From sequence record MH051335.1: 64,000 nt of DNA. The stretch is one strand, 5' to 3'. Below the pieces are notes generated by a model. That model saw only the letters and a program-made list of their open reading frames with translations. It ran no database searches and had not been told where the DNA came from. A program made the translations under genes and the position numbers. Source of the DNA: Escherichia phage vB_EcoM-Ro157lw. Shown here piece by piece: positions 360-13,901 of this stretch; position 1 is the first letter of the stretch, and each line of letters opens with the position of its first letter.

Positions 360-833
360 ATGAGTCAAGATTATGTAGCAATGCCTGAAGACTTTGAAGA
401 CCCGCGATTTGCAGAGCATAATCAGGCATTATTCGATGAGTTCATTGACCTTGTTATTCAGGGCCATGACATGCGCGCAGCTTTTGCACTAGTATTTGGC
501 ATGGAGGTTGCGACCGATAACTACACTGGCCAGCGAATCCTCTGCACGCAACGCAATCCGTACTACAAGATGCGCTACAAAAAGCGTATGGAAGAGATGC
601 CATTGAAGGAATTGTGGAGCGTAAAGAGTTCCATCCACAATTTAGTGAAGCTTGTGCGTGATCCAGAAGTCGCGGCATCAGCCAAGCTTAATGCCATTCG
701 TGAACTGAATATCATCTACGGCATTACGATGATTGATGAAAACGGCAATAGTAAAATGGGCCGTTCCATGGATGATTTCTACAAGGATTTTGGAGAGGCG
801 GCCAAAGAGGGTGAGCAATTCTCCCGCCACTAG
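360..833 (+). CDS. hypothetical protein (start uncertain; frame is open back to a TTG at 165)
   Basis: ORF track 165..833; first ATG-initiated stretch MSQDY at 360; region upstream is occupied by motif copies; no clear SD. Confidence 0.5.
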   Translation: MSQDYVAMPEDFEDPRFAEHNQALFDEFIDLVIQGHDMRAAFALVFGMEVATDNYTGQRILCTQRNPYYKMRYKKRMEEMPLKELWSVKSSIHNLVKLVRDPEVAASAKLNAIRELNIIYGITMIDENGNSKMGRSMDDFYKDFGEAAKEGEQFSRH

Positions 834-5478: not shown

Positions 5479-7833
5479 TTATTTTGCTGATTTTAGCGCG
5501 GCTATCTCTGCCTTGAGTTCATCTATCTGATCCATCAATGCAAGAATAGCCTCGTGGTGCAGCGCCGCAGCCACTCCGTAAGTGTCGACTGATTTGATAT
5601 CCTCGACAATTGTGCCATCCTTTAGTTCCGTGTTTGAATATTTCAAAGTCTTTACTGCATCAGGGAATACGCCTTCTACGTCTTGGGCGATAAAGCCAAT
5701 TCCATTCGGTTTTTCTGATTTATCAAGACGCTCCCAAGTCACACCCTTGATCAACCTCATCTTCCCTAACGGGTCTGAAATCCTTTGAATGTTCGTCTTG
5801 ACCCTCTCATCAGACGTGCTAACCCAGTTCCCAGCACTGGCAGTCCCATCAGGGAAAAATCTGAAGTCAGCGGCTTGCCCTGCCCCGTTGTTGATTGATA
5901 TTTGCGCACGCTCTAAGGCTGTGCTGCCGCCGCGAACGCCGCCAAATGTATAGCTGCCATCATACCAATCTCCTGAAAAATATGACACATATCCAGGCGT
6001 TGATTGATTGAAGTTGACCATCCTCATGGCATTTCTTTCATGCGCTGAAACGCCTACTGAGTTCAACGGTTGCGCAACAAGGTCTTTTGGTCTGAGATAT
6101 GCATTAACAGTCAATGCGCCATCACTTCTCTGAGTCTCAATTTGCGTTATTGAGTCCGGGAAAGATAGTGCTCCATATTGGTTGAATGACCACTCTTGCA
6201 CACCATTTGAAACTATTGCTCCACATTCAGACGATGATCCATCAATCTTGCCGTATGCCTGCAAGAATGCTTGATACGCGATGTTCGTGCCAATCTTATA
6301 TTCAGATTTTACACTACCGCCTCTGACAAGCGTTCCGGTTGCAGGTTTTACTGCGTCGCCGTTGATAACGCTCCAAGACGTATTCGCGGCAACAAATCCA
6401 CCCGATGCACGAATCACCCAAACGCCTTCAAAGGCATTAGGTCGAACTTCATTTGCACCATCACGCCCATAAGCGCCATTGGAAAGGCTTGCATCAATGT
6501 TCAATCCGTTCCTATAGTTAAGGTTTGTTGCACCTCCGTCTGGACCAACTCTTAGGCCTGGAATAACAACAGGTGCTGGAACTATTGCCCCTGTCCCTGT
6601 GTTACCTGCCGTGTTATATTGCGTTGATATTGAAGTACCAATTGAACCGGTTATGTTTGGCGCTGCGTTTTGTCTTACGCGACCGTCAGAAGAAGACACT
6701 CCACCATCGCCTCGTCCAAATAAGCCTGGGATGGACCCCGCTTGGACACCGTTTCTGTCTGGTACGCGGAATGTTGTTGTTCCGTTGCCCAAAGAATATT
6801 TGCCGCGTTTTGCTGGGTCGGCAAGCCAGTCAGCATCGGCAATAGGGGAAAGCATTTGCGCATAAGCCCAAAGTTCAGGCCAGTCTGCACGATTTAACAA
6901 TTGTCCGTCAGAAACGACTTCATAAGGTTGAATATAAGCACGGCTGTCCCGTAAGTGGAAATCACCGACGCCATAGTTCATAACACCGTTCATGCTTGGG
7001 CCAACAGTTCCGGTGTTTACTAAGTTCTCAACCCAACGTTTAGTCGCGGCGTCATAATCATTTACAGGGTCGCCAGCAAGCGGAGTTGGGCCTATCGGTC
7101 GGATATTCAGCCATGCCTGCGCGTTATCACCTGATCCTGTGCCTCCCATCGAAGTAGGAACAATATTTTGATCAGCGACTTGCCCGAATCCAAAAGCGGA
7201 CTTCATCCCTTGGATGGTAGTTTGTCCTGTGCCGCCGTTGGCTACTGGGATGACAGATTCGCTGTTGTATATTTGCTCCCATCGACTCCAAACTCCATTT
7301 ACCGCGTTGTAAGTCCTTTGGTATGTAACATTGTTGTAGTATGTTGAGTATCTTTGTACACAACTTTCTATTGATGGTCCAGTTTTTAGAACTTCAAGGA
7401 CTCCTGCTTGTAAAACTGGGTAATTAAGAACAGGCTGAGCATCTGCATTGAAGTCTTGGAAATAATTTCCAAACCAAGAGCCTGTCAGAAAGTTGAGATT
7501 TATCCCAGAAGGAAGTTTGCCATAATTTCTTACAACCCCTGTTAAGGTCGCAGCAGTGTTACGAATGGAAAGCAGATCTCCAGTCGCCCATGCACGCGCT
7601 GCAGTCCCTTCCTGTGCACGCTGCACGGTCAGGACGTTCCCAACCACGGCTGTTACTGTGACGATTTCGAATTGAAGGCCTGTTGCAGCGTCAACGATTG
7701 TCGCCACTACGCTCTCGTTTGCGCCCAAGGTCGGAAAGTCCGACCCTGAGCGAATTGTGATTGTGGTGTCTGAAGTCGTCGTTGGTTGAGCCAGCGCGAC
7801 CTCAAAGTTGTTTTTGAATATTAGCCTTGGCAT
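5479..7833 (-). CDS. tail fiber protein with tail-collar domain and C-terminal intramolecular chaperone (peptidase S74-type)
   Basis: Collar-like motif LLNRADWPELWAYAQ...FRVPDRNG; C-terminal SDERVKTNI...GFIAQDVE plus terminal coiled coil typical of self-cleaving fiber chaperones; GAGGA SD. Confidence 0.75.
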   Translation of the reverse strand: MPRLIFKNNFEVALAQPTTTSDTTITIRSGSDFPTLGANESVVATIVDAATGLQFEIVTVTAVVGNVLTVQRAQEGTAARAWATGDLLSIRNTAATLTGVVRNYGKLPSGINLNFLTGSWFGNYFQDFNADAQPVLNYPVLQAGVLEVLKTGPSIESCVQRYSTYYNNVTYQRTYNAVNGVWSRWEQIYNSESVIPVANGGTGQTTIQGMKSAFGFGQVADQNIVPTSMGGTGSGDNAQAWLNIRPIGPTPLAGDPVNDYDAATKRWVENLVNTGTVGPSMNGVMNYGVGDFHLRDSRAYIQPYEVVSDGQLLNRADWPELWAYAQMLSPIADADWLADPAKRGKYSLGNGTTTFRVPDRNGVQAGSIPGLFGRGDGGVSSSDGRVRQNAAPNITGSIGTSISTQYNTAGNTGTGAIVPAPVVIPGLRVGPDGGATNLNYRNGLNIDASLSNGAYGRDGANEVRPNAFEGVWVIRASGGFVAANTSWSVINGDAVKPATGTLVRGGSVKSEYKIGTNIAYQAFLQAYGKIDGSSSECGAIVSNGVQEWSFNQYGALSFPDSITQIETQRSDGALTVNAYLRPKDLVAQPLNSVGVSAHERNAMRMVNFNQSTPGYVSYFSGDWYDGSYTFGGVRGGSTALERAQISINNGAGQAADFRFFPDGTASAGNWVSTSDERVKTNIQRISDPLGKMRLIKGVTWERLDKSEKPNGIGFIAQDVEGVFPDAVKTLKYSNTELKDGTIVEDIKSVDTYGVAAALHHEAILALMDQIDELKAEIAALKSAK

Positions 7834-8642: not shown

Positions 8643-8853
8643 TTTCTTTCCACTCCACAAATGTACTGCTACTTGTTTCTCTATTTAGCAGGTATCTGCC
8701 GCGCATTCCACGAAGGCTGAATTCAACCGTCGATGGATTAGATTTTGAAAGCCACATCACTTGACCGTCGAACGGTCCGCCAACGCATGTGTATTTGGCC
8801 TTTGGCTCACTCCTTTTGGGCCTCTTTGCCCGCTCTTTGATTGATAGTCTCAT
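8632..8853 (-). CDS. hypothetical basic protein
   Basis: ORF track; AAGGTGA SD. Confidence 0.5.
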   Translation of the reverse strand: MRLSIKERAKRPKRSEPKAKYTCVGGPFDGQVMWLSKSNPSTVEFSLRGMRGRYLLNRETSSSTFVEWKENGK

Positions 8854-9068
8854 CAGTCTTCACCTTGAGATTCAAGACAAGTAAGAACAAGCCACGTCAT
8901 CGGAAGAATCAAAACCAGAGAAATAAGTGACCAAATGGACCAACACAAGATGACAGACTTGAATGTGTGAACGTCGCCAAACGCAGCAGTGAAACAAAAT
9001 CCCATTACGAAAGCAATCGCTGTGGAGTGATTATCAATGGCTTTGATGGCGCGGTCGATGAGTTTCAT
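8853..9068 (-). CDS. small membrane protein with two predicted TM segments (holin candidate, unproven)
   Basis: ORF track; GGAGGT SD; hydrophobic stretches. Confidence 0.5.
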   Translation of the reverse strand: MKLIDRAIKAIDNHSTAIAFVMGFCFTAAFGDVHTFKSVILCWSIWSLISLVLILPMTWLVLTCLESQGED

Positions 9069-9149
9069 ATTACCTCCGGTTTTGAGTTAATATGATTATA
9101 ATGCAGAATTTCAGAAAGGCAAACTTTTTGTGAATTTAAATTAAAAAAA

Positions 9150-9170
9150 TGGCCAGAAATAATCTGGCCA
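9150..9170 (-). terminator. minus-strand-oriented hairpin (7-bp stem, A7 before and A5 after on plus = U-tract on minus)
   Basis: TGGCCAG/CTGGCCA inverted repeat in the divergent region. Confidence 0.4.
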
Positions 9171-9246
9171 AAAAGATCACCCTTTATCCACTACTAAGCT
9201 GGAATCATAATTTTACTTGATATAGCTGTCTCAAGCAAACTATAAT

Positions 9247-10707
9247 ATGAATAAAATATTAACACATAATTGGAAAGTCATGTACCAGTTGAATCCTGCT
9301 TTAAGAGAAGTCTGGAAGACGAAAGCGCGATACAAAGTCATATACGGCGGTCGTGCATCTTCCAAATCGCACGATGCCGCTGGTTTTGCTATTTATTTGG
9401 CGGCAAACTTCAAATTAAAATTCCTTTGCGTTCGACAATTCCAGAACAAGATTTCTGAATCAGTATATACGCTATTAAAAGATAAAATAGAGATTTCTGA
9501 TTTTAAAGACGAGTTCAACTTATTAAAGAACTCTATTGAACACAAAAGAACAAAATCTGAATTTTTATTTTACGGTATCGCACGCAACGTTGACGAAATC
9601 AAATCAACAGAAGGTGTTGATGTTCTTTGGCTTGAAGAAGCGCATGCACTGACTGAAGAGCAATGGGACATCATTGAGCCGACAATTCGTAAGGAAGGGT
9701 CCGAAATATGGATCATATTTAACCCTGATGAAGAGGCTGATTTTGTCTACCAGAACTTTGTCATGCGACCGCCGAAGAATGCCATCGTTAAGAAGATTAA
9801 CTGGCAGGACAACCCATTCTTGTCGCAAACAATGCTGGATGTTATAGCTGGCATGTATGAGCGCGACCCGAAAAAGGCAGAACACGTTTATGGCGGAGTA
9901 CCGAAGACTGGCGGCGACAAGTCGGTCATCAACCGTGCATTTGTCAAGGCCGCGCTAAACCTCCACAAACACCCTACGCTGGGGTGGAGCTTGTCAGGGT
10001 CTAACCGTATAGGCTTCGACGTGGCGGACGACGGCGACGACTTAAACGCCACAGCGTTTGTCACAGGCAACGTATTACGTGGCATCAAGACATGGGAAGG
10101 TCTGGAAGATGAATTGCTTAAGTCCGCAAGCGGAGTTTGGAAAGACGCATTGACATTCGGCGCATCAATCACCTATGACGCCATCGGTGTTGGTGCATTT
10201 GCTGGTTCAAAATTTGATGAGCTTAATGAGTATGCAATCCATGAAAATCCAACATTCCCAAGAATCGAATTTAATGCGTTCAACGCGCAAGGTGCTGTTG
10301 ATGATCCTGATGACGTTTTCCTTGAGTTACCACACGTTGAAATACTCAATAAAGACCATTTCGCAAACATAAAAGCGCAAAAATGGACTGAGATTGCCGA
10401 ACGATTCAGAAAGACATATGAGTATGCGACAGGGCAAGCCGTATATCCGACCGATGAGTTGATTTCCATCGACACAGACGGCATCCCAGAACTTGGTATT
10501 CCCGCTTGGTCTGCCGAAGAAATTGAGACGTTTCTTTTTGAGATGTCAGCACCGCGCAAAGACACGTCTGTTCTTGGTAAGTTCAAAGTTGAATCGAAAA
10601 AAGATATGGCAAAGCGTGGAGTCAAATCGCCTAACAAAGCGGACGCAGCAATCATGGCATTGATGAAACCAATTGTTGCAGCATCCGGCTTCTTCTCTAA
10701 CCTTTAA
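9247..10707 (+). CDS. terL: terminase large subunit
   Basis: Deviant Walker A GGRASSKS, Walker B VDVLWLEEA; position ahead of portal. Confidence 0.8.
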   Translation: MNKILTHNWKVMYQLNPALREVWKTKARYKVIYGGRASSKSHDAAGFAIYLAANFKLKFLCVRQFQNKISESVYTLLKDKIEISDFKDEFNLLKNSIEHKRTKSEFLFYGIARNVDEIKSTEGVDVLWLEEAHALTEEQWDIIEPTIRKEGSEIWIIFNPDEEADFVYQNFVMRPPKNAIVKKINWQDNPFLSQTMLDVIAGMYERDPKKAEHVYGGVPKTGGDKSVINRAFVKAALNLHKHPTLGWSLSGSNRIGFDVADDGDDLNATAFVTGNVLRGIKTWEGLEDELLKSASGVWKDALTFGASITYDAIGVGAFAGSKFDELNEYAIHENPTFPRIEFNAFNAQGAVDDPDDVFLELPHVEILNKDHFANIKAQKWTEIAERFRKTYEYATGQAVYPTDELISIDTDGIPELGIPAWSAEEIETFLFEMSAPRKDTSVLGKFKVESKKDMAKRGVKSPNKADAAIMALMKPIVAASGFFSNL

Positions 10708-10710
10708 CAA

Positions 10711-10950
10711 TTAAAGCATTCCGTGCTGAAGGTCGAGCTTTCTTGCGGCAAACGACCTGGCACGGAATCGCTTACCCGCCCTTACTGCCTGTCGAATTTT
10801 CTTTTGCAAACACTTACGGTCAAAATCGTTGCGGTCGACGGCTTCGAGTAAATCGCGACGCAGTGCACCCAGTGTCGACTTATCGGAGACTTCGACGCCG
10901 AGCGCGGCTGCAACATCTTTCAAAACATCGAGTTCGGTTAAAGTTCTCAT
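10711..10950 (-). CDS. hypothetical protein with Rho-N/SAP-like N-terminus and basic tail
   Basis: ORF track; motif LTELDVLKDVAAALGV; AAGGGG SD. Confidence 0.5.
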   Translation of the reverse strand: MRTLTELDVLKDVAAALGVEVSDKSTLGALRRDLLEAVDRNDFDRKCLQKKIRQAVRAGKRFRARSFAARKLDLQHGML

Positions 10951-11363
10951 TTAATAATCCCCTTGATGTCTGATTCTGCCATGAAGATTGGAGTGCCGCC
11001 GCCAGGAACAATCGAGCGCGTAACTTTGTCAAACATATCGTTTTCTTCAACTTGAATACGATAAAATTTATTTTTGGATGAAGATGGGCACAATCCCATA
11101 AATTTGCCGATTCCGCGAACGCATTCATCTTCAAAGTATACTGTTTCACCTTGAATGGAGTCGATATTGTCTACTGGATAGACTTTGCGACCCAACAACC
11201 ACTCATCCAAAGTCGCCTGCAAGACGTTTCGCGCATCTAAAATCCACGGGTCAATAGTAGCACCTTCGTATCGCGCAGCAGTGGCCTTTGCCAGTTCTTC
11301 ATATTCGCATACGTTAACGACTTCGCCGTTGTGTAGGACGACAAATACAATTGTTGTGCTCAT
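10947..11363 (-). CDS. hypothetical protein
   Basis: ORF track; AGGAG SD; 4-bp overlap with downstream gene. Confidence 0.55.
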   Translation of the reverse strand: MSTTIVFVVLHNGEVVNVCEYEELAKATAARYEGATIDPWILDARNVLQATLDEWLLGRKVYPVDNIDSIQGETVYFEDECVRGIGKFMGLCPSSSKNKFYRIQVEENDMFDKVTRSIVPGGGTPIFMAESDIKGIIK

Positions 11364-11458
11364 TTCAATCTCCTTTCGTTTGGTTAACTAAAATATAACT
11401 CAAAATGATACAAAAGCAAAATATTTTATGAACTATTTATGATCACCATACATATCAT

Positions 11459-11487
11459 TTGCTTACAAACACATGAATATTTATAAT
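11459..11487 (+). promoter_or_regulatory. sigma70-like promoter TTGCTT-N17-TATAAT upstream of portal
   Basis: Hexamers read directly. Confidence 0.4.
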
Positions 11488-11525
11488 ATAGATTGATTCC
11501 CTTTCACTGTCAGGTGGCGTTAACA

Positions 11526-13901
11526 ATGAAAATTCTTGGCATAAAACTCTGGGAGAAGACGCAACCAGAAGCCGAACCAGCGGAGATGCCGCCAGGCGAC
11601 CCATTGGCACCGTTTGAACGCCTTGAAAGGCGCGGCAGCGGTCAACGCTGGGAAAAGACTGAAAGCAATCGACCGACCTTTAAAACGGTTGATGACTTCC
11701 CTTTATATGAGCCTGATATTAATGGCGATGGTGTTGCAATCATAAAAGGTCGTTCAGTCGATTCCGCAACAGTATCCAAAAAGGTTATGGATAATGCCTT
11801 AAAGAACATCAGTTCAGAAGGGCAAGTCAACCCATACACAGTACCTATTCAACTTCAAAACTGGTATTTGTCACAGTCATTCATCGGCTATCAAGCTTGC
11901 GCAATTATAGCGCAGCACTGGCTGGTGAACAAGGCTTGTTCCATGGTAGGCCGCGATGCGGTCCGTAAAGGCTGGGAAGTTAAATCCAGTTCTGAGTCAG
12001 AATTGTCAGTACAAGCCAGCGAACGCCTAAAGCAAATTGATAAAGAATTTAATATCAAAGAGCACTTAGTTGAAGCCGAACGATTCAAAAATATTTTTGG
12101 TATCCGCGTCATCATATTTGATGTGCGTAGCGATGACCCAGAATATTACAGCAAGCCTTTTAACATTGATGGTGTGACAAAGGGGTCTTATAAGGGAATC
12201 ATTCAGGTTGACCCTTATTGGATGATGCCATTTTTGACGTCTGAAAACACCGCCGACCCTGCATCACAGCACTTCTATGATCCAGAATACTGGGTGATCA
12301 GTGGACAACGTTATCATCGAAGTCACCTCATCATCTTGCGCAATGATGAGCCAGCTGATATTCTCAAGCCAACTTATATTTACGGCGGCATTCCTCTGAC
12401 TCAGCAGATTTATGAACGCATCTATGCCGCTGAACGTACCGCTAACGAAGCGCCATTGCTGGCGATGTCCAAGCGTACAACCACGCTGCGGACCGACGTT
12501 GACAAGGCTATTGCCAATGAGCGGTCTTTTGCAGAACGTCTGATGATGTGGATCAAGTACCGCGACAACTATGCAGTCAAAGTGCTTGGCCAAAAAGAAG
12601 AGATGGACCAGTTTGACATCAACTTGTCAGACTTCGACAGCATCATCATGAACCAGTACCAGCTTGTGGCCGCAATCGCAAAAGTTCCGTCGACCAAACT
12701 GCTTGGGACTTCGCCAAAAGGCTTTAACGCCACTGGTGAATTCGAGATGGTCAGCTATCACGAAGAGTTGGAAACGTGCCAGCAGCATGACCTGACAAAA
12801 ATTCTCGACCGCCATTACAAAATCCTTCTCAAATCAGAAGGGGTGGATGTCGATGTTAAGGTTGCATGGGAACCAGTTGGCTCACTTACTGCTACTCAAC
12901 TTGCAGAAATCAATGATAAGCGAGCCAACACTGGCAAAACTCTTATTGATGCTGGCGTCATTTCTCCTGATGAAGAGCGCGACCGCATCAAAGACGACAA
13001 AAACAGCGGCTACAACCGTCTGCCGGAAGACGCAGCAGAAGAAACCCCAGGGATGTCTCCAGAGAATATGGCATTGCTTGGCAAGTCTGCTGGTGAAGTC
13101 CTGCAAGGTAAGGCCGATATTGAACAGGCGAAAGCTGATGTCGTTAAGATGGGCGGCCAGTTCTATAGCGAAACAGGTATTATGCCAGAGGGTGCCGCGC
13201 GTGGTGAGTTGGCGGAAAACCCTGACAAGGCGCCTGTCGAAATCAACATGGACGATACCGATGATGAATCAAGCCATCAGGTTGATGTCCTAACGCAGTT
13301 GAAAGAAGGGCTGGAGGGTATTGCGGATTACTACCTGAAAGAAGGTCAGGATGTGGATTTTGACCCTCAAAAAGATTCACGGTCGGTGCAACCGTCTACC
13401 CTTCCAAGCGTTAAAGGACACGTCGTCAACTTACGCCACAACGTGGGTAAAATGGACGCAGCATCATTACCTAAGATGAAGTTGCACGGAATGATTCTTG
13501 GCATTGAGAATCCGCGAAACAGCATTCGTAGAGGAAACAGCCTTGACGGTGAATGGGCCGTGAAGATGCCGCACCACTACGGATTCATCAAGGGCACCAA
13601 GGGCGCAGACGGTGATGAAGTCGACTGCTTTGTGGGTCCAAATCTGAAGTCGCCGAAAGTCTTTATCGTGAACCAAAACGATAACTACTCTGGCGAGTTT
13701 GATGAACACAAGTGTATGCTTGGATTCGATTCAGCAGAAGAAGCGAAAGAAGCTTATCAAGCATCATTTGGTAACGGTTGGAACGGATTCGACTCAATCC
13801 ACGAATTAGATGTGAACTCATTCAAGGAGTGGTTGAAGGGTGATTGCTCTCAAGCATACGGAGCACTCAATAATCCTACTAATTCACCGAAGCAAGGTTG
13901 A
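11526..13901 (+). CDS. portal protein with ~250-aa C-terminal extension
   Basis: Position between terminase and MuF-like gene; portal-like N-terminal two-thirds; ATG at 11526 with AGGTGG SD (track extends to TTG 11493). Confidence 0.65.
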   Translation: MKILGIKLWEKTQPEAEPAEMPPGDPLAPFERLERRGSGQRWEKTESNRPTFKTVDDFPLYEPDINGDGVAIIKGRSVDSATVSKKVMDNALKNISSEGQVNPYTVPIQLQNWYLSQSFIGYQACAIIAQHWLVNKACSMVGRDAVRKGWEVKSSSESELSVQASERLKQIDKEFNIKEHLVEAERFKNIFGIRVIIFDVRSDDPEYYSKPFNIDGVTKGSYKGIIQVDPYWMMPFLTSENTADPASQHFYDPEYWVISGQRYHRSHLIILRNDEPADILKPTYIYGGIPLTQQIYERIYAAERTANEAPLLAMSKRTTTLRTDVDKAIANERSFAERLMMWIKYRDNYAVKVLGQKEEMDQFDINLSDFDSIIMNQYQLVAAIAKVPSTKLLGTSPKGFNATGEFEMVSYHEELETCQQHDLTKILDRHYKILLKSEGVDVDVKVAWEPVGSLTATQLAEINDKRANTGKTLIDAGVISPDEERDRIKDDKNSGYNRLPEDAAEETPGMSPENMALLGKSAGEVLQGKADIEQAKADVVKMGGQFYSETGIMPEGAARGELAENPDKAPVEINMDDTDDESSHQVDVLTQLKEGLEGIADYYLKEGQDVDFDPQKDSRSVQPSTLPSVKGHVVNLRHNVGKMDAASLPKMKLHGMILGIENPRNSIRRGNSLDGEWAVKMPHHYGFIKGTKGADGDEVDCFVGPNLKSPKVFIVNQNDNYSGEFDEHKCMLGFDSAEEAKEAYQASFGNGWNGFDSIHELDVNSFKEWLKGDCSQAYGALNNPTNSPKQG
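13476..13898 (+). other. inorganic-pyrophosphatase-like segment within the portal C-terminal extension
   Basis: KMPHHYGFIKGTKGADGDEVDCFV matches the family-I pyrophosphatase signature D-[SGDN]-D-[PE]-[LIVMF]-D-[LIVMGAC] and the preceding YPxNYGxI..T pattern (recalled, not searched). Confidence 0.4.

What the first reader, a model, noticed from the sequence alone, without database searches (positions are those of the whole stretch)
10711..11363. Two-gene leftward insertion between terminase and portal
The terminase-portal junction is normally tight and co-directional. Here two translationally coupled minus-strand genes (138 aa, and a 79-aa protein with a Rho-N/SAP-like DNA/RNA-binding N-terminus and basic tail) sit between them with their own SD sequences. 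This junction is a known insertion hotspot for accessory cargo such as anti-defense or toxin-antitoxin-like pairs.
Basis: partly seen in the sequence, partly recalled or inferred. Interest (0 to 1): 0.45.

Follow-up and report, generated by a model that had tools for sequence, protein, structure and literature searches.

The report
Conserved two-gene operon, not an insertion
The two small leftward genes between the terminase and portal genes of this E. coli Wifcevirus phage are real. They are not a recent insertion but the trimmed-down remnant of an old, conserved accessory operon found at this spot in the whole PB1-like phage group, and their function is still unknown.

Summary
The window is a Wifcevirus (vB_EcoM_WFH-like E. 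coli myophage).

**Observation confirmed.** W138 (10947-11363, minus strand) and W79 (10711-10950, minus strand) overlap by ATGA. Each has a Shine-Dalgarno site. They lie between TerL (9280-10707) and portal (11526-13901).

**The "insertion / toxin-antitoxin cargo" reading is not supported.**
- The pair is present in all 28 Wifcevirus records.
- It is under purifying selection (dN/dS 0.06-0.08), with dS and GC like its neighbours.
- Its relatives sit at the same place in sister lineages. Pantoea phage Kyle and three metagenomic phages carry W138-like, a trypsin-like lipoprotein, W79-like and a DUF2786 protein, in that order. About 298 Pseudomonas PB1-like phages have a W138 homologue (ORF16, phrog_5124) as the first gene of a 14-gene leftward block.
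- Wifcevirus therefore holds the minimal, deletion-reduced version, and the adjacency of the two genes is derived.

**Anatomy.** The unit looks self-contained. It has a cross-genus conserved sigma70-like promoter, divergent from the portal promoter, inside an almost invariant intergenic region. It also has a terminator-like hairpin inside the 3' end of W79.

**Proteins.** Neither protein was detected in published virion/lysate mass spectrometry. W138 is predicted as a small alpha/beta domain plus an SH3-like barrel. W79 is predicted as a weakly SAP-like helical protein with a basic tail.

**Most likely role.** Intracellular regulatory or host-takeover proteins. This is an inference.

The parts
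11392..11419 (-). Proposed leftward promoter PL of the two-gene unit: -35 TTGCTT (11419->11414), 16-nt spacer, -10 TATATT (11397->11392); predicted start near 11385
   Evidence: Read from the sequence. Both hexamers are kept in Kyle (TTGCTT / TATATT) and L008 (TTGACT / TATAAT) in the intergenic alignment, and the -10 is kept in Hera. The consensus scan missed it because its -35 matches only 3/6. The scan's own candidates on this strand (11432->11405 and 11513->11485) are not conserved in Kyle or L008. No transcript data; inferred.
11370..11375 (-). Shine-Dalgarno AAGGAG of W138, 6 nt before the ATG (AGGAG core 7 nt before)
   Evidence: annotated as a ribosome binding site in phage Mansfield
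10947..11363 (-). W138: 138 aa, 15.4 kDa, pI 4.7. Member of the PB1 ORF16 / phrog_5124 family. Predicted N-terminal beta-beta-alpha-beta domain plus a C-terminal SH3-like barrel.
10958..10964 (-). Shine-Dalgarno AAGGGGA of W79, lying inside the 3' end of W138
   Evidence: annotated as a ribosome binding site in Mansfield
10711..10950 (-). W79: 79 aa, 9.0 kDa, pI 10.3. Acidic helical N-terminal part (weakly SAP-like), conserved D..DF..KC.QK motif, basic C-terminal tail.
10704..10771 (-). Terminator-like element of the leftward unit: interrupted hairpin (arms 10754-10771 and 10716-10734) inside the last codons of W79, followed on the minus strand by UUUAAUUGUU, which spans the W79 stop codon and the 3-nt gap to the TerL stop
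   Evidence: Folds. The arms are invariant in 11 genomes (0/37 sites) while the loop has 4/19 variable sites. Only 1.7% of same-shaped coding windows are invariant. The scan tool did not call it because the loop exceeds 8 nt. Function inferred. A predicted minus-strand terminator sits at the equivalent place in LMA2 and phiKT28.
11364..11525 (.). Divergent-promoter intergenic region shared with portal: 28% GC, almost invariant. It is part of a ~290-bp block (11337-11623) with only 4 variable sites in 11 genomes.
   Evidence: 3 variable sites in the intergenic region against 12-16% in the flanking coding sequence; invariant runs; 75% column identity to the Kyle and L008 intergenic regions although the adjacent W138 proteins are only 25-33% identical
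11459..11487 (+). Rightward portal promoter PR: TTGCTT, 17 nt, TATAAT. Context, not part of the unit.
   Evidence: Sequence. The TATAAT is invariant in Wifcevirus, Kyle, L008, LMA2 and Hera. LMA2 is annotated with predicted sigma70 promoters at this place.

Best explanation
The two genes form a small, self-contained leftward transcription unit. It is the Wifcevirus version of an ancestral accessory operon that lies between the isolated TerL gene and the portal gene in the whole PB1-like myophage clade (Pbunavirus, Kylevirus, Myosmarvirus, Wifcevirus and uncultured relatives).

In the enterobacterial sister lineages the gene order is W138-like, trypsin-like lipoprotein, (optional small genes), W79-like, (optional genes), DUF2786/DUF7168. 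Wifcevirus lacks everything except W138 and W79. That brought the two genes together and produced the ATGA overlap.

The unit is probably transcribed by host sigma70 RNA polymerase from a conserved promoter placed back-to-back with the portal promoter. It probably ends at a hairpin inside the 3' end of W79. Both steps are inferred.

The products are non-virion, intracellular proteins under strong purifying selection. W138 is an acidic two-domain protein with an SH3-like barrel and most likely acts as a protein- or nucleic-acid-binding adaptor. W79 is a helical, weakly SAP-like protein with a very basic tail and most likely binds DNA or RNA. The most likely role is regulation or host takeover during infection, by analogy with the homologous block of Pbunavirus, which is treated as early and contains the RNA polymerase alpha-binding gp12 of phage 14-1.

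Shown: existence, coupling, conservation, synteny, selection, predicted folds, and absence from one virion/lysate proteome study. Inferred: promoter and terminator use, timing, and binding activities.
For: **Identity and presence.** The window is 97.9% identical to WFH over 9000-12500. The pair is in 28/28 Wifcevirus records.

**Selection and history.** dN/dS is 0.057 (W79) and 0.076 (W138). dS is 0.22-0.25 against 0.31 for TerL. GC is unremarkable.

**Synteny.**
- Kyle g26 ~ W138 and g24 ~ W79, with a protease between them.
- L008, L019 and L020 have the same order. The L019 79-aa protein matches W79 at E 2e-34.
- LMA2 ORF16 ~ W138 is the first of 14 leftward genes between TerL and portal. 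This family is in 298 Pseudomonas phage records and equals phrog_5124.
- No homologue of the protease, DUF2786, Kyle g23 or 14-1 gp12 is found in the window.

**Regulatory anatomy.** The intergenic region is almost invariant and its promoter hexamers are conserved across genera. The hairpin arms are invariant.

**Not TerS.** The E217-type TerS is at about 363-833 (hit to 7UXE, E 9e-33).

**Not virion proteins.** vB_Eco4M-7 gp34 and gp35 are absent from the 33 proteins detected, and the ECML-117 list of 28 skips the two genes before its 88.6-kDa portal (PI34_gp34) (PMC7048862; locus tags).

**Structures.**

**Early-region analogy.** 14-1 gp12 binds RNA polymerase alpha (cited in PMC10914365). 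LMA2 gp01 (PIT2), in the leftward block on the other side of TerL, is treated as an early host-interacting protein (PMC10509696).
Against: - There is no direct evidence for timing, promoter use or termination in any Wifcevirus.
- The portal and TerL genes also have sigma70-like promoters, so promoter type does not mark the unit as early. Leftward orientation does not either, since a tail fibre gene is also leftward.
- No HMM links either protein to a characterised family.
- Myosmarvirus Hera has neither gene, although it has the same TerL/portal architecture, so neither is universally required.
- The mass spectrometry absence is negative evidence from one study of crude particles.
Confidence: 0.6

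Rival explanations
1. Anti-defence cargo. One or both proteins (for example the acidic W138, made first from the leftward promoter) inhibit a host immunity system. This would contribute to the broad insensitivity of Wifceviruses to tested defence systems.
For: [quoted passage not shown] W138 is acidic (pI 4.7) and first in its operon. The block it belongs to has variable content between genera, as counter-defence regions often do.
Against: W138 and W79 are the conserved members of that block, not the variable ones. W138 is kept in about 298 Pseudomonas phages and several enterobacterial lineages with very different hosts and immune repertoires. dN/dS is low, with no sign of arms-race evolution. 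No similarity to any characterised inhibitor was found. No anti-defence HMM library was available.
Confidence: 0.15
2. Non-virion packaging or head-assembly helpers. Their fixed position between TerL and portal would reflect a role in portal or procapsid assembly or in packaging initiation, for example W79 as a DNA-binding helper of a TerS that binds DNA poorly.
For: W138-like genes are always directly next to, and divergent from, the portal gene in Wifcevirus, Kyle, L008, L019, L020 and Pbunavirus. The shared intergenic region is extremely conserved. E217 TerS showed no appreciable DNA binding in vitro (review PMC9611059). W79 has a basic tail.
Against: The genes are on the opposite strand from all head genes. 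In Pbunavirus, W138's homologue appears to be co-transcribed with host-interaction genes such as the gp12 type. W79 is absent from Pbunavirus, including E217-type phages. Hera has neither gene but the same TerL and portal. Neither was detected in particles. A bona fide TerS exists elsewhere in the window.
Confidence: 0.12
3. A toxin-antitoxin-like, or otherwise mutually dependent, two-gene cassette acquired by horizontal transfer.
For: Two small overlapping genes with their own SD sites, one of them basic and helical.
Against: The genes are not adjacent in any sister lineage; a protease, sometimes with a further small gene, lies between them. W138 occurs without W79 in about 298 Pseudomonas phages. 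There are no toxin, antitoxin or defence HMM hits. No homologue was found in one genome per species of 185,579 bacteria and archaea (pattern-limited). Divergence and GC match the flanks. Chains of ATGA-type overlaps are the rule throughout this operon in relatives.
Confidence: 0.03

Closest known systems
Pbunavirus (PB1-like) ORF16 family, phrog_5124 (e.g. LMA2 gp16, YP_002154250)
   Same: Homologous to W138: phmmer E 4e-6 against a small local database, profile search E 1e-21 to 1e-31, and 11 of 13 family members hit phrog_5124. Same length (133 against 138 aa) and same acidity (pI 4.7). Same position: the first gene of the leftward operon that diverges from the portal gene.
   Different: About 25% identity. 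In Pbunavirus it heads a 14-gene, 6.3-kb block. In Wifcevirus it is followed only by W79, which Pbunavirus lacks. Function is unknown in both.
TerL-portal leftward block of Pantoea phage Kyle (g26-g22) and uncultured relatives (L008, L019, L020)
   Same: Contains homologues of both W138 and W79 in the same order and orientation, behind a recognisably homologous divergent promoter region.
   Different: Those blocks also encode a lipoprotein-type Trypsin_2 protease between the two genes and a DUF2786/DUF7168 protein at the end, with one to three further small genes in L008, L020 and Kyle. None of these is present in the window.
SAP / Rho-N-type helix-extended-loop-helix DNA/RNA-binding modules (Siz1 and PIAS1 SAP domains, Rho N-terminal domain)
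Early host-takeover ORFans of Pbunavirus (14-1 gp12, which binds RNA polymerase alpha; LMA2 gp01/PIT2, which binds LasR)
   Same: 14-1 gp12 lies in the block homologous to the one that holds W138; PIT2 lies in the leftward block on the other side of TerL. All are small, lineage-restricted and non-structural.
   Different: No sequence similarity to W138 or W79. No gp12 homologue is present in the window. Targets of W138 and W79 are unknown.

Membership tests
phrog_5124 / PB1 ORF16-like family (for W138) | Significant HMM or profile match to the family | tested here: met
   W138 against phrog_5124: E 2.9e-4. 11 of 13 aligned relatives match it, best E 2.9e-88. A profile search with the family alignment recovers Pbunavirus members at E 1e-25 to 1e-31. 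phmmer of W138 against LMA2 ORF16: E 4e-6 in a small database.
phrog_5124 / PB1 ORF16-like family (for W138) | Conserved genomic position: first gene of the leftward operon divergent from portal | tested here: met
   LMA2, Kyle, L008, L019 and L020, and the window.
SAP domain (PF02037) / Rho_N (PF07498) (for the W79 N-terminus) | Pfam HMM match at or near the gathering score | tested here: not met
   No SAP, Rho_N or HeH hit at E up to 1 for W79 or any of 5 relatives. No PDB sequence hit with the family profile.
SAP domain (PF02037) / Rho_N (PF07498) (for the W79 N-terminus) | Helix-extended-loop-helix fold superposable on solved SAP or Rho-N domains | tested here: inconclusive
SAP domain (PF02037) / Rho_N (PF07498) (for the W79 N-terminus) | Nucleic-acid binding | not testable with these tools
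   Needs a gel-shift assay or similar with purified W79.
Type II toxin-antitoxin pair | Obligate adjacency and co-occurrence of the two genes across relatives | tested here: not met
   One or two genes separate them in Kyle, L008, L019 and L020. W138 homologues occur without W79 in about 298 Pseudomonas phages.
Type II toxin-antitoxin pair | Recognisable toxin or antitoxin domain | tested here: not met
   No Pfam, NCBIfam or PADLOC hit.
Type II toxin-antitoxin pair | Toxicity of one partner neutralised by the other | not testable with these tools
   Needs expression experiments.
Small terminase (TerS) | Homology to the TerS of the clade (E217 TerS, PDB 7UXE) | tested here: not met
   The 7UXE homologue is a different gene at window ~363-833 (E 9e-33). 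W138 and W79 profiles give no PDB sequence hit.
Recently inserted moron or accessory cargo | Presence/absence polymorphism among close relatives, or atypical composition or divergence | tested here: not met
   Present in 28/28 records. GC is 43.6% and 51.2% against 46.1% for the window. dS is similar to that of TerL. The polymorphic site of the genus lies upstream of TerL instead.
CarD/TRCF RID (Tudor-like RNA polymerase-interacting domain) (for the W138 C-terminus) | Pfam PF02559 match above the gathering score | tested here: not met
Virion structural protein | Detection in purified particles | tested here: not met
   The orthologues vB_Eco4M-7_34 and _35 are not among the 33 proteins found by mass spectrometry, and the two genes before the ECML-117 portal are not among its 28 (PMC7048862; tags). 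This is literature evidence and it is negative.

The most novel reading that the evidence does not exclude
W138 and W79 are the only two genes that Wifcevirus kept from an ancestral multi-gene operon, and they sit behind one of the most conserved non-coding stretches of the genome. They could be key early factors behind two unexplained traits of these phages: insensitivity to nearly all tested defence systems, and a reported extremely short latent period. For example, W79 could be a SAP-like DNA/RNA binder and W138 an SH3-like adaptor that together redirect or protect host transcription or phage DNA. That would define a new family of takeover or anti-defence proteins shared with the therapeutic Pseudomonas PB1-like phages.
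Probability: 0.1. Interest if true: 0.6.

Novelty: new member of a known kind. Interest (0 to 1): 0.22.

Why it matters
As first described (an insertion of cargo at a hotspot), the finding would not hold up. What remains is a pair of uncharacterised but clearly functional phage genes.

W138 belongs to a family that is core in roughly 300 sequenced PB1-like Pseudomonas phages, many of them used therapeutically, and in their enterobacterial relatives. It is always the first gene next to the portal promoter, and nobody knows what it does. Wifcevirus offers the simplest genetic background for finding out: an E. coli host, only two genes in the operon, and BASEL isolates Bas98-101 available.

The almost invariant divergent promoter region is a concrete handle for studying how these phages, which lack their own RNA polymerase, coordinate leftward accessory transcription with rightward head-gene transcription.

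Tried and rejected
**Family searches with no meaningful hit.** Pfam, NCBIfam, PADLOC and PDB-sequence searches of both proteins and of their family profiles gave nothing. Weak Pfam hits (CarD_TRCF_RID at 0.058, WGR, JIP_LZII, Ubiquitin_TPR1) were rejected as below threshold.

**Database searches.**
- The first word-indexed searches found only Wifcevirus-level relatives.
- P0008 (74% identity, 156 aa) is a frameshifted copy, not a divergent homologue.
- P0014 (1410-aa repeat protein, E 1e-8 over 5 stretches) was judged spurious.
- The IMG/VR and metagenome scans for W79 found only Wifcevirus and Kyle.
- The genome-contig scan for W138 found nothing.
- The broad alignments A9 and A3 were too divergent for pattern scans.

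**Structure steps.** afdb50 was unavailable. BFVD gave only the family itself.

**RNA and repeats.** Rfam gave nothing around the locus. The inverted repeat AAATGATA/TATCATTT in the intergenic region was rejected as a candidate operator because its complementarity is not kept in Kyle or L008. The scan tool's own leftward promoter candidates were rejected for the same reason.

**Data problems.** My first portal dN/dS was in the wrong frame (start 11527 instead of 11526) and is disregarded. No supplementary transcript tables for phage 14-1 were available. Literature searches for gene-deletion studies of vB_Eco4M-7 found nothing relevant.

Full report
**What the window is.** Bases 9000-12500 are 92-98% identical to 28 phage records of the genus Wifcevirus, with vB_EcoM_WFH at 97.9%. 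These are E. coli/Shigella myoviruses of 66-72 kb. The BASEL paper describes them as distant relatives of the Pseudomonas Pbunavirus (PB1-like) phages (PMC11990801).

- ORF listing gives W138 at 10947..11363 (minus strand, 138 aa) and W79 at 10711..10950 (minus strand, 79 aa).
- The W79 ATG overlaps the W138 TGA, giving ATGA. Both genes are preceded by good Shine-Dalgarno sequences.
- The neighbours are TerL (Terminase_3; annotated start 9280, stop 10707) and portal (Phage_portal_3 plus a C-terminal InPase domain; 11526-13901), both rightward.
- Only 3 nt separate the TerL stop from the W79 stop.
- Across 11 Wifcevirus genomes, dN/dS is 0.057 (W79) and 0.076 (W138), against 0.014 for TerL. Synonymous divergence is comparable: dS 0.22, 0.25 and 0.31.
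- GC content is unremarkable: 51.2% and 43.6% against 46.1% for the window.
- These are therefore real, constrained protein genes that have diverged together with their neighbours.

**It is not an insertion.**
- All 28 Wifcevirus records carry both genes at 94-100% amino-acid identity.
- Both genes also have homologues at the same junction in sister lineages.
  - In Pantoea phage Kyle (TerL 75% identical), five leftward genes lie between TerL and portal. g26 is homologous to W138. g24 is homologous to W79 (33% identity, pairwise E 3e-10). A 'protease' lies between them.
  - Three uncultured phages found through the protein searches show the same plan. L019 is the closest outgroup, with W138 at 56% identity and a 79-aa W79 orthologue at E 2e-34. 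It has W138-like, a Trypsin_2 lipoprotein, W79-like and DUF2786/DUF7168.
  - L008 and L020 add two or three more small genes.
- In Pbunavirus LMA2 and phiKT28, TerL is followed by 14 leftward genes (ORF05-ORF16) before portal. The gene next to portal, ORF16 (133 aa, pI 4.7), is a W138 homologue. This family is phrog_5124. tblastn finds it in 298 Pseudomonas phage records.
- Serratia phage Hera has seven leftward genes at the junction, none similar to W138 or W79. Hera gp9 and gp6 appear by eye to resemble Kyle g22 and g23.
- The window has no homologue of the protease, the DUF2786 protein, Kyle g23 or the 14-1 gp12 type.
- The parsimonious reading is that a leftward block between an isolated TerL and portal is ancestral to the clade. 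Its content turns over, and Wifcevirus carries a minimal derivative left by deletions. The adjacency and ATGA overlap of W138 and W79 are therefore derived. ATGA-type overlaps link most genes of this operon in the relatives as well.
- The site that really is polymorphic within the genus lies upstream of TerL. There, Mansfield, ECML-117, TH32, TH35 and vB_Eco4M-7 carry an extra 76-aa gene on a 260-bp indel that this window lacks.

**Anatomy of the unit.**
- The 162-bp intergenic region (11364-11525, 28% GC) has three variable sites in 11 genomes, against 12-16% variable sites in the flanking coding sequence. With the first codons of both genes it forms a ~290-bp block (11337-11623) with four variable sites.
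- The region aligns at 75% column identity with the equivalent regions of Kyle and L008, although the adjacent W138 proteins are only 25-33% identical.
- The conserved columns include two back-to-back sigma70-like promoters. PR for portal is TTGCTT-17-TATAAT (11459-11487), and its TATAAT is invariant even in LMA2 and Hera. PL for W138 is TTGCTT-16-TATATT on the minus strand (11419->11392).
- The consensus scanner missed both because their -35 hexamers match only 3/6. Its own leftward candidates are not conserved between genera.
- At the other end, the last codons of W79 contain an interrupted hairpin (arms 10716-10734 and 10754-10771). On the minus strand it is followed by UUUAAUUGUU.
- The hairpin arms are invariant in 11 genomes (0 of 37 sites), while the 19-nt loop has four variable sites. 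Only 1.7% of same-shaped coding windows are fully invariant.
- A predicted minus-strand terminator is annotated at the equivalent place in LMA2 and phiKT28.
- I therefore read the locus as a self-contained transcript of about 680 nt. Promoter and terminator use are inferred, not shown.

**The proteins.**
- *W138.* With a 13-sequence alignment, AF2 gives pLDDT 84.6 and pTM 0.72. The model has an N-terminal beta-beta-alpha-beta unit, then a short helix and strand, then a C-terminal five-stranded barrel.
  - BFVD returns only the family itself.
  - The weak Pfam hit to the CarD/TRCF RNA polymerase-interacting domain (E 0.058) is below threshold and is seen in only 2 of 13 members.
- *W79.* AF2 gives pLDDT 76 from a shallow alignment and predicts four helices.
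- No SAP, Rho_N or HeH HMM matches any of six family members.
  - The family conserves a D..DF..KC.QK motif and a basic tail. Residues 46-79 of W79 have pI 12.
- *Excluded roles.* Neither protein is the small terminase. The homologue of E217 TerS (PDB 7UXE) is at about 363-833 (E 9e-33), which fits the report that TerS and TerL are far apart in E217 (PMC9611059).
  - Mass spectrometry of vB_Eco4M-7 and ECML-117 preparations detected 33 and 28 proteins, including portal. It did not detect the orthologues gp34 and gp35, nor the two genes before the ECML-117 portal (PMC7048862; locus tags).

**Most likely function.**
- Homologous or neighbouring leftward blocks in Pbunavirus are treated as early, host-interacting genes. 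14-1 gp12 binds the RNA polymerase alpha subunit (cited in PMC10914365). LMA2 gp01 (PIT2) binds LasR (PMC10509696).
- By this analogy, and from the predicted folds, I consider W138 and W79 most likely to be intracellular regulatory or host-takeover proteins: an acidic SH3-like adaptor and a basic nucleic-acid binder.
- This step is inference. Promoter type does not separate the pair from the head genes, and no expression data exist for Wifcevirus.
- Rivals:
  - An anti-defence role is attractive because Wifceviruses resist almost all tested defence systems without a known mechanism. It sits poorly with deep conservation and low dN/dS.
  - A packaging or assembly helper role is suggested by the fixed synteny with portal. 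Strand, operon partners, absence of both genes from Hera and absence of W79 from Pbunavirus argue against it.
  - A toxin-antitoxin pair is effectively excluded by non-adjacency in relatives, independent occurrence of W138, and lack of any toxin or antitoxin signature.

**Verdict.** The sequence observation is correct. The interpretation as inserted cargo is not. The locus is an ordinary but well-conserved ORFan operon of a known genomic kind. Its interest is modest: it contains the Wifcevirus member of a family that is core in PB1-like phages and has no known function, next to an unusually conserved divergent promoter region.

Noticed in passing
window ~9069-9246 (between the leftward gene 8853-9068 and TerL): This is the real presence/absence site of the genus. 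Mansfield, ECML-117, TH32, TH35 and vB_Eco4M-7 have 260 extra bp here, encoding a 76-aa leftward gene (CPT_Mansfield_020 / vB_Eco4M-7_32, 7.8 kDa). This window, WFH and others lack it. That small protein was detected by mass spectrometry with a high score in vB_Eco4M-7, and a 7.7-kDa protein (PI34_gp30), probably the same one, was detected in ECML-117.
   Followed up: partly
window 11337-11623: A ~290-bp block covers the first codons of W138, the whole intergenic region and the first ~33 codons of portal. It has only 4 variable sites in 11 genomes that differ at 12-16% of sites elsewhere. The intergenic part is still 75% identical to Pantoea phage Kyle and a metagenomic relative. This is more constraint than two promoters alone would need, and the cause is unknown.
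   Followed up: partly
window 10704-10771: The hairpin inside the 3' end of W79 has invariant arms and a variable loop. The W79 stop codon is TAA, TAG or TGA in different isolates, while the surrounding U-rich tract is kept. It may act as a leftward terminator that shields the convergent TerL gene from antisense transcription.
   Followed up: partly
window ~363-833 (+): This 157-aa ORF is the homologue of the E217 small terminase (PDB 7UXE, E 9e-33). It lies 8.4 kb from TerL and is separated from it by leftward genes that include a tail fibre. It is annotated only as 'hypothetical protein' in Bas98.
   Followed up: yes
window 11526-13901 (portal), residues ~660-782: The portal protein carries a C-terminal InPase domain (PF18823, E 3e-46). 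The same domain matches PHROGs annotated as DarB-like antirestriction, endolysin and virion proteins, which are mostly very long. The fusion is shared with the relatives L008, L019 and L020.
   Followed up: no
window 9217-9280 and 9150-9170: TerL has its own strong sigma70-like promoter (TTGATA-18-TATAAT, 11/12) ending at 9246. The long ORF start at 9247 is therefore unlikely, and the annotated ATG at 9280 fits better. A canonical minus-strand terminator (stem 9170->9150, then a T run) lies just upstream of TerL and is annotated in WFH.
   Followed up: partly
L019 5411-6019; L020 6444-7004; L008 6426-6998; L004 (Kyle) 5876-6421: Sister lineages encode a trypsin-like (Trypsin_2) protein with a lipoprotein-type signal (LAGCS), translationally coupled to the W138-like gene. 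A secreted lipoprotein protease in a virulent myophage is unusual. It is absent from Wifcevirus and Pbunavirus.
   Followed up: partly
L007 1286-1609 (LMA2 ORF15) and L003 10365-10553 (Hera gp5): In LMA2, the gene following the ORF16 homologue has a hydrophobic N-terminus followed by conserved cysteines, and so does the portal-proximal gene of Hera. By eye they look related. This suggests that a small exported protein often occupies the second or first slot of this operon.
   Followed up: no
protein hits P0008 and P0014: P0008 (156 aa, Logan assembly) is W138 with a frameshift into the alternative frame seen at window 10880-11149. P0014 (1410 aa, many tandem ~70-aa beta repeats) scored E 1e-8 against W138 over five stretches; I took this to be a repeat artefact.
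   Followed up: partly
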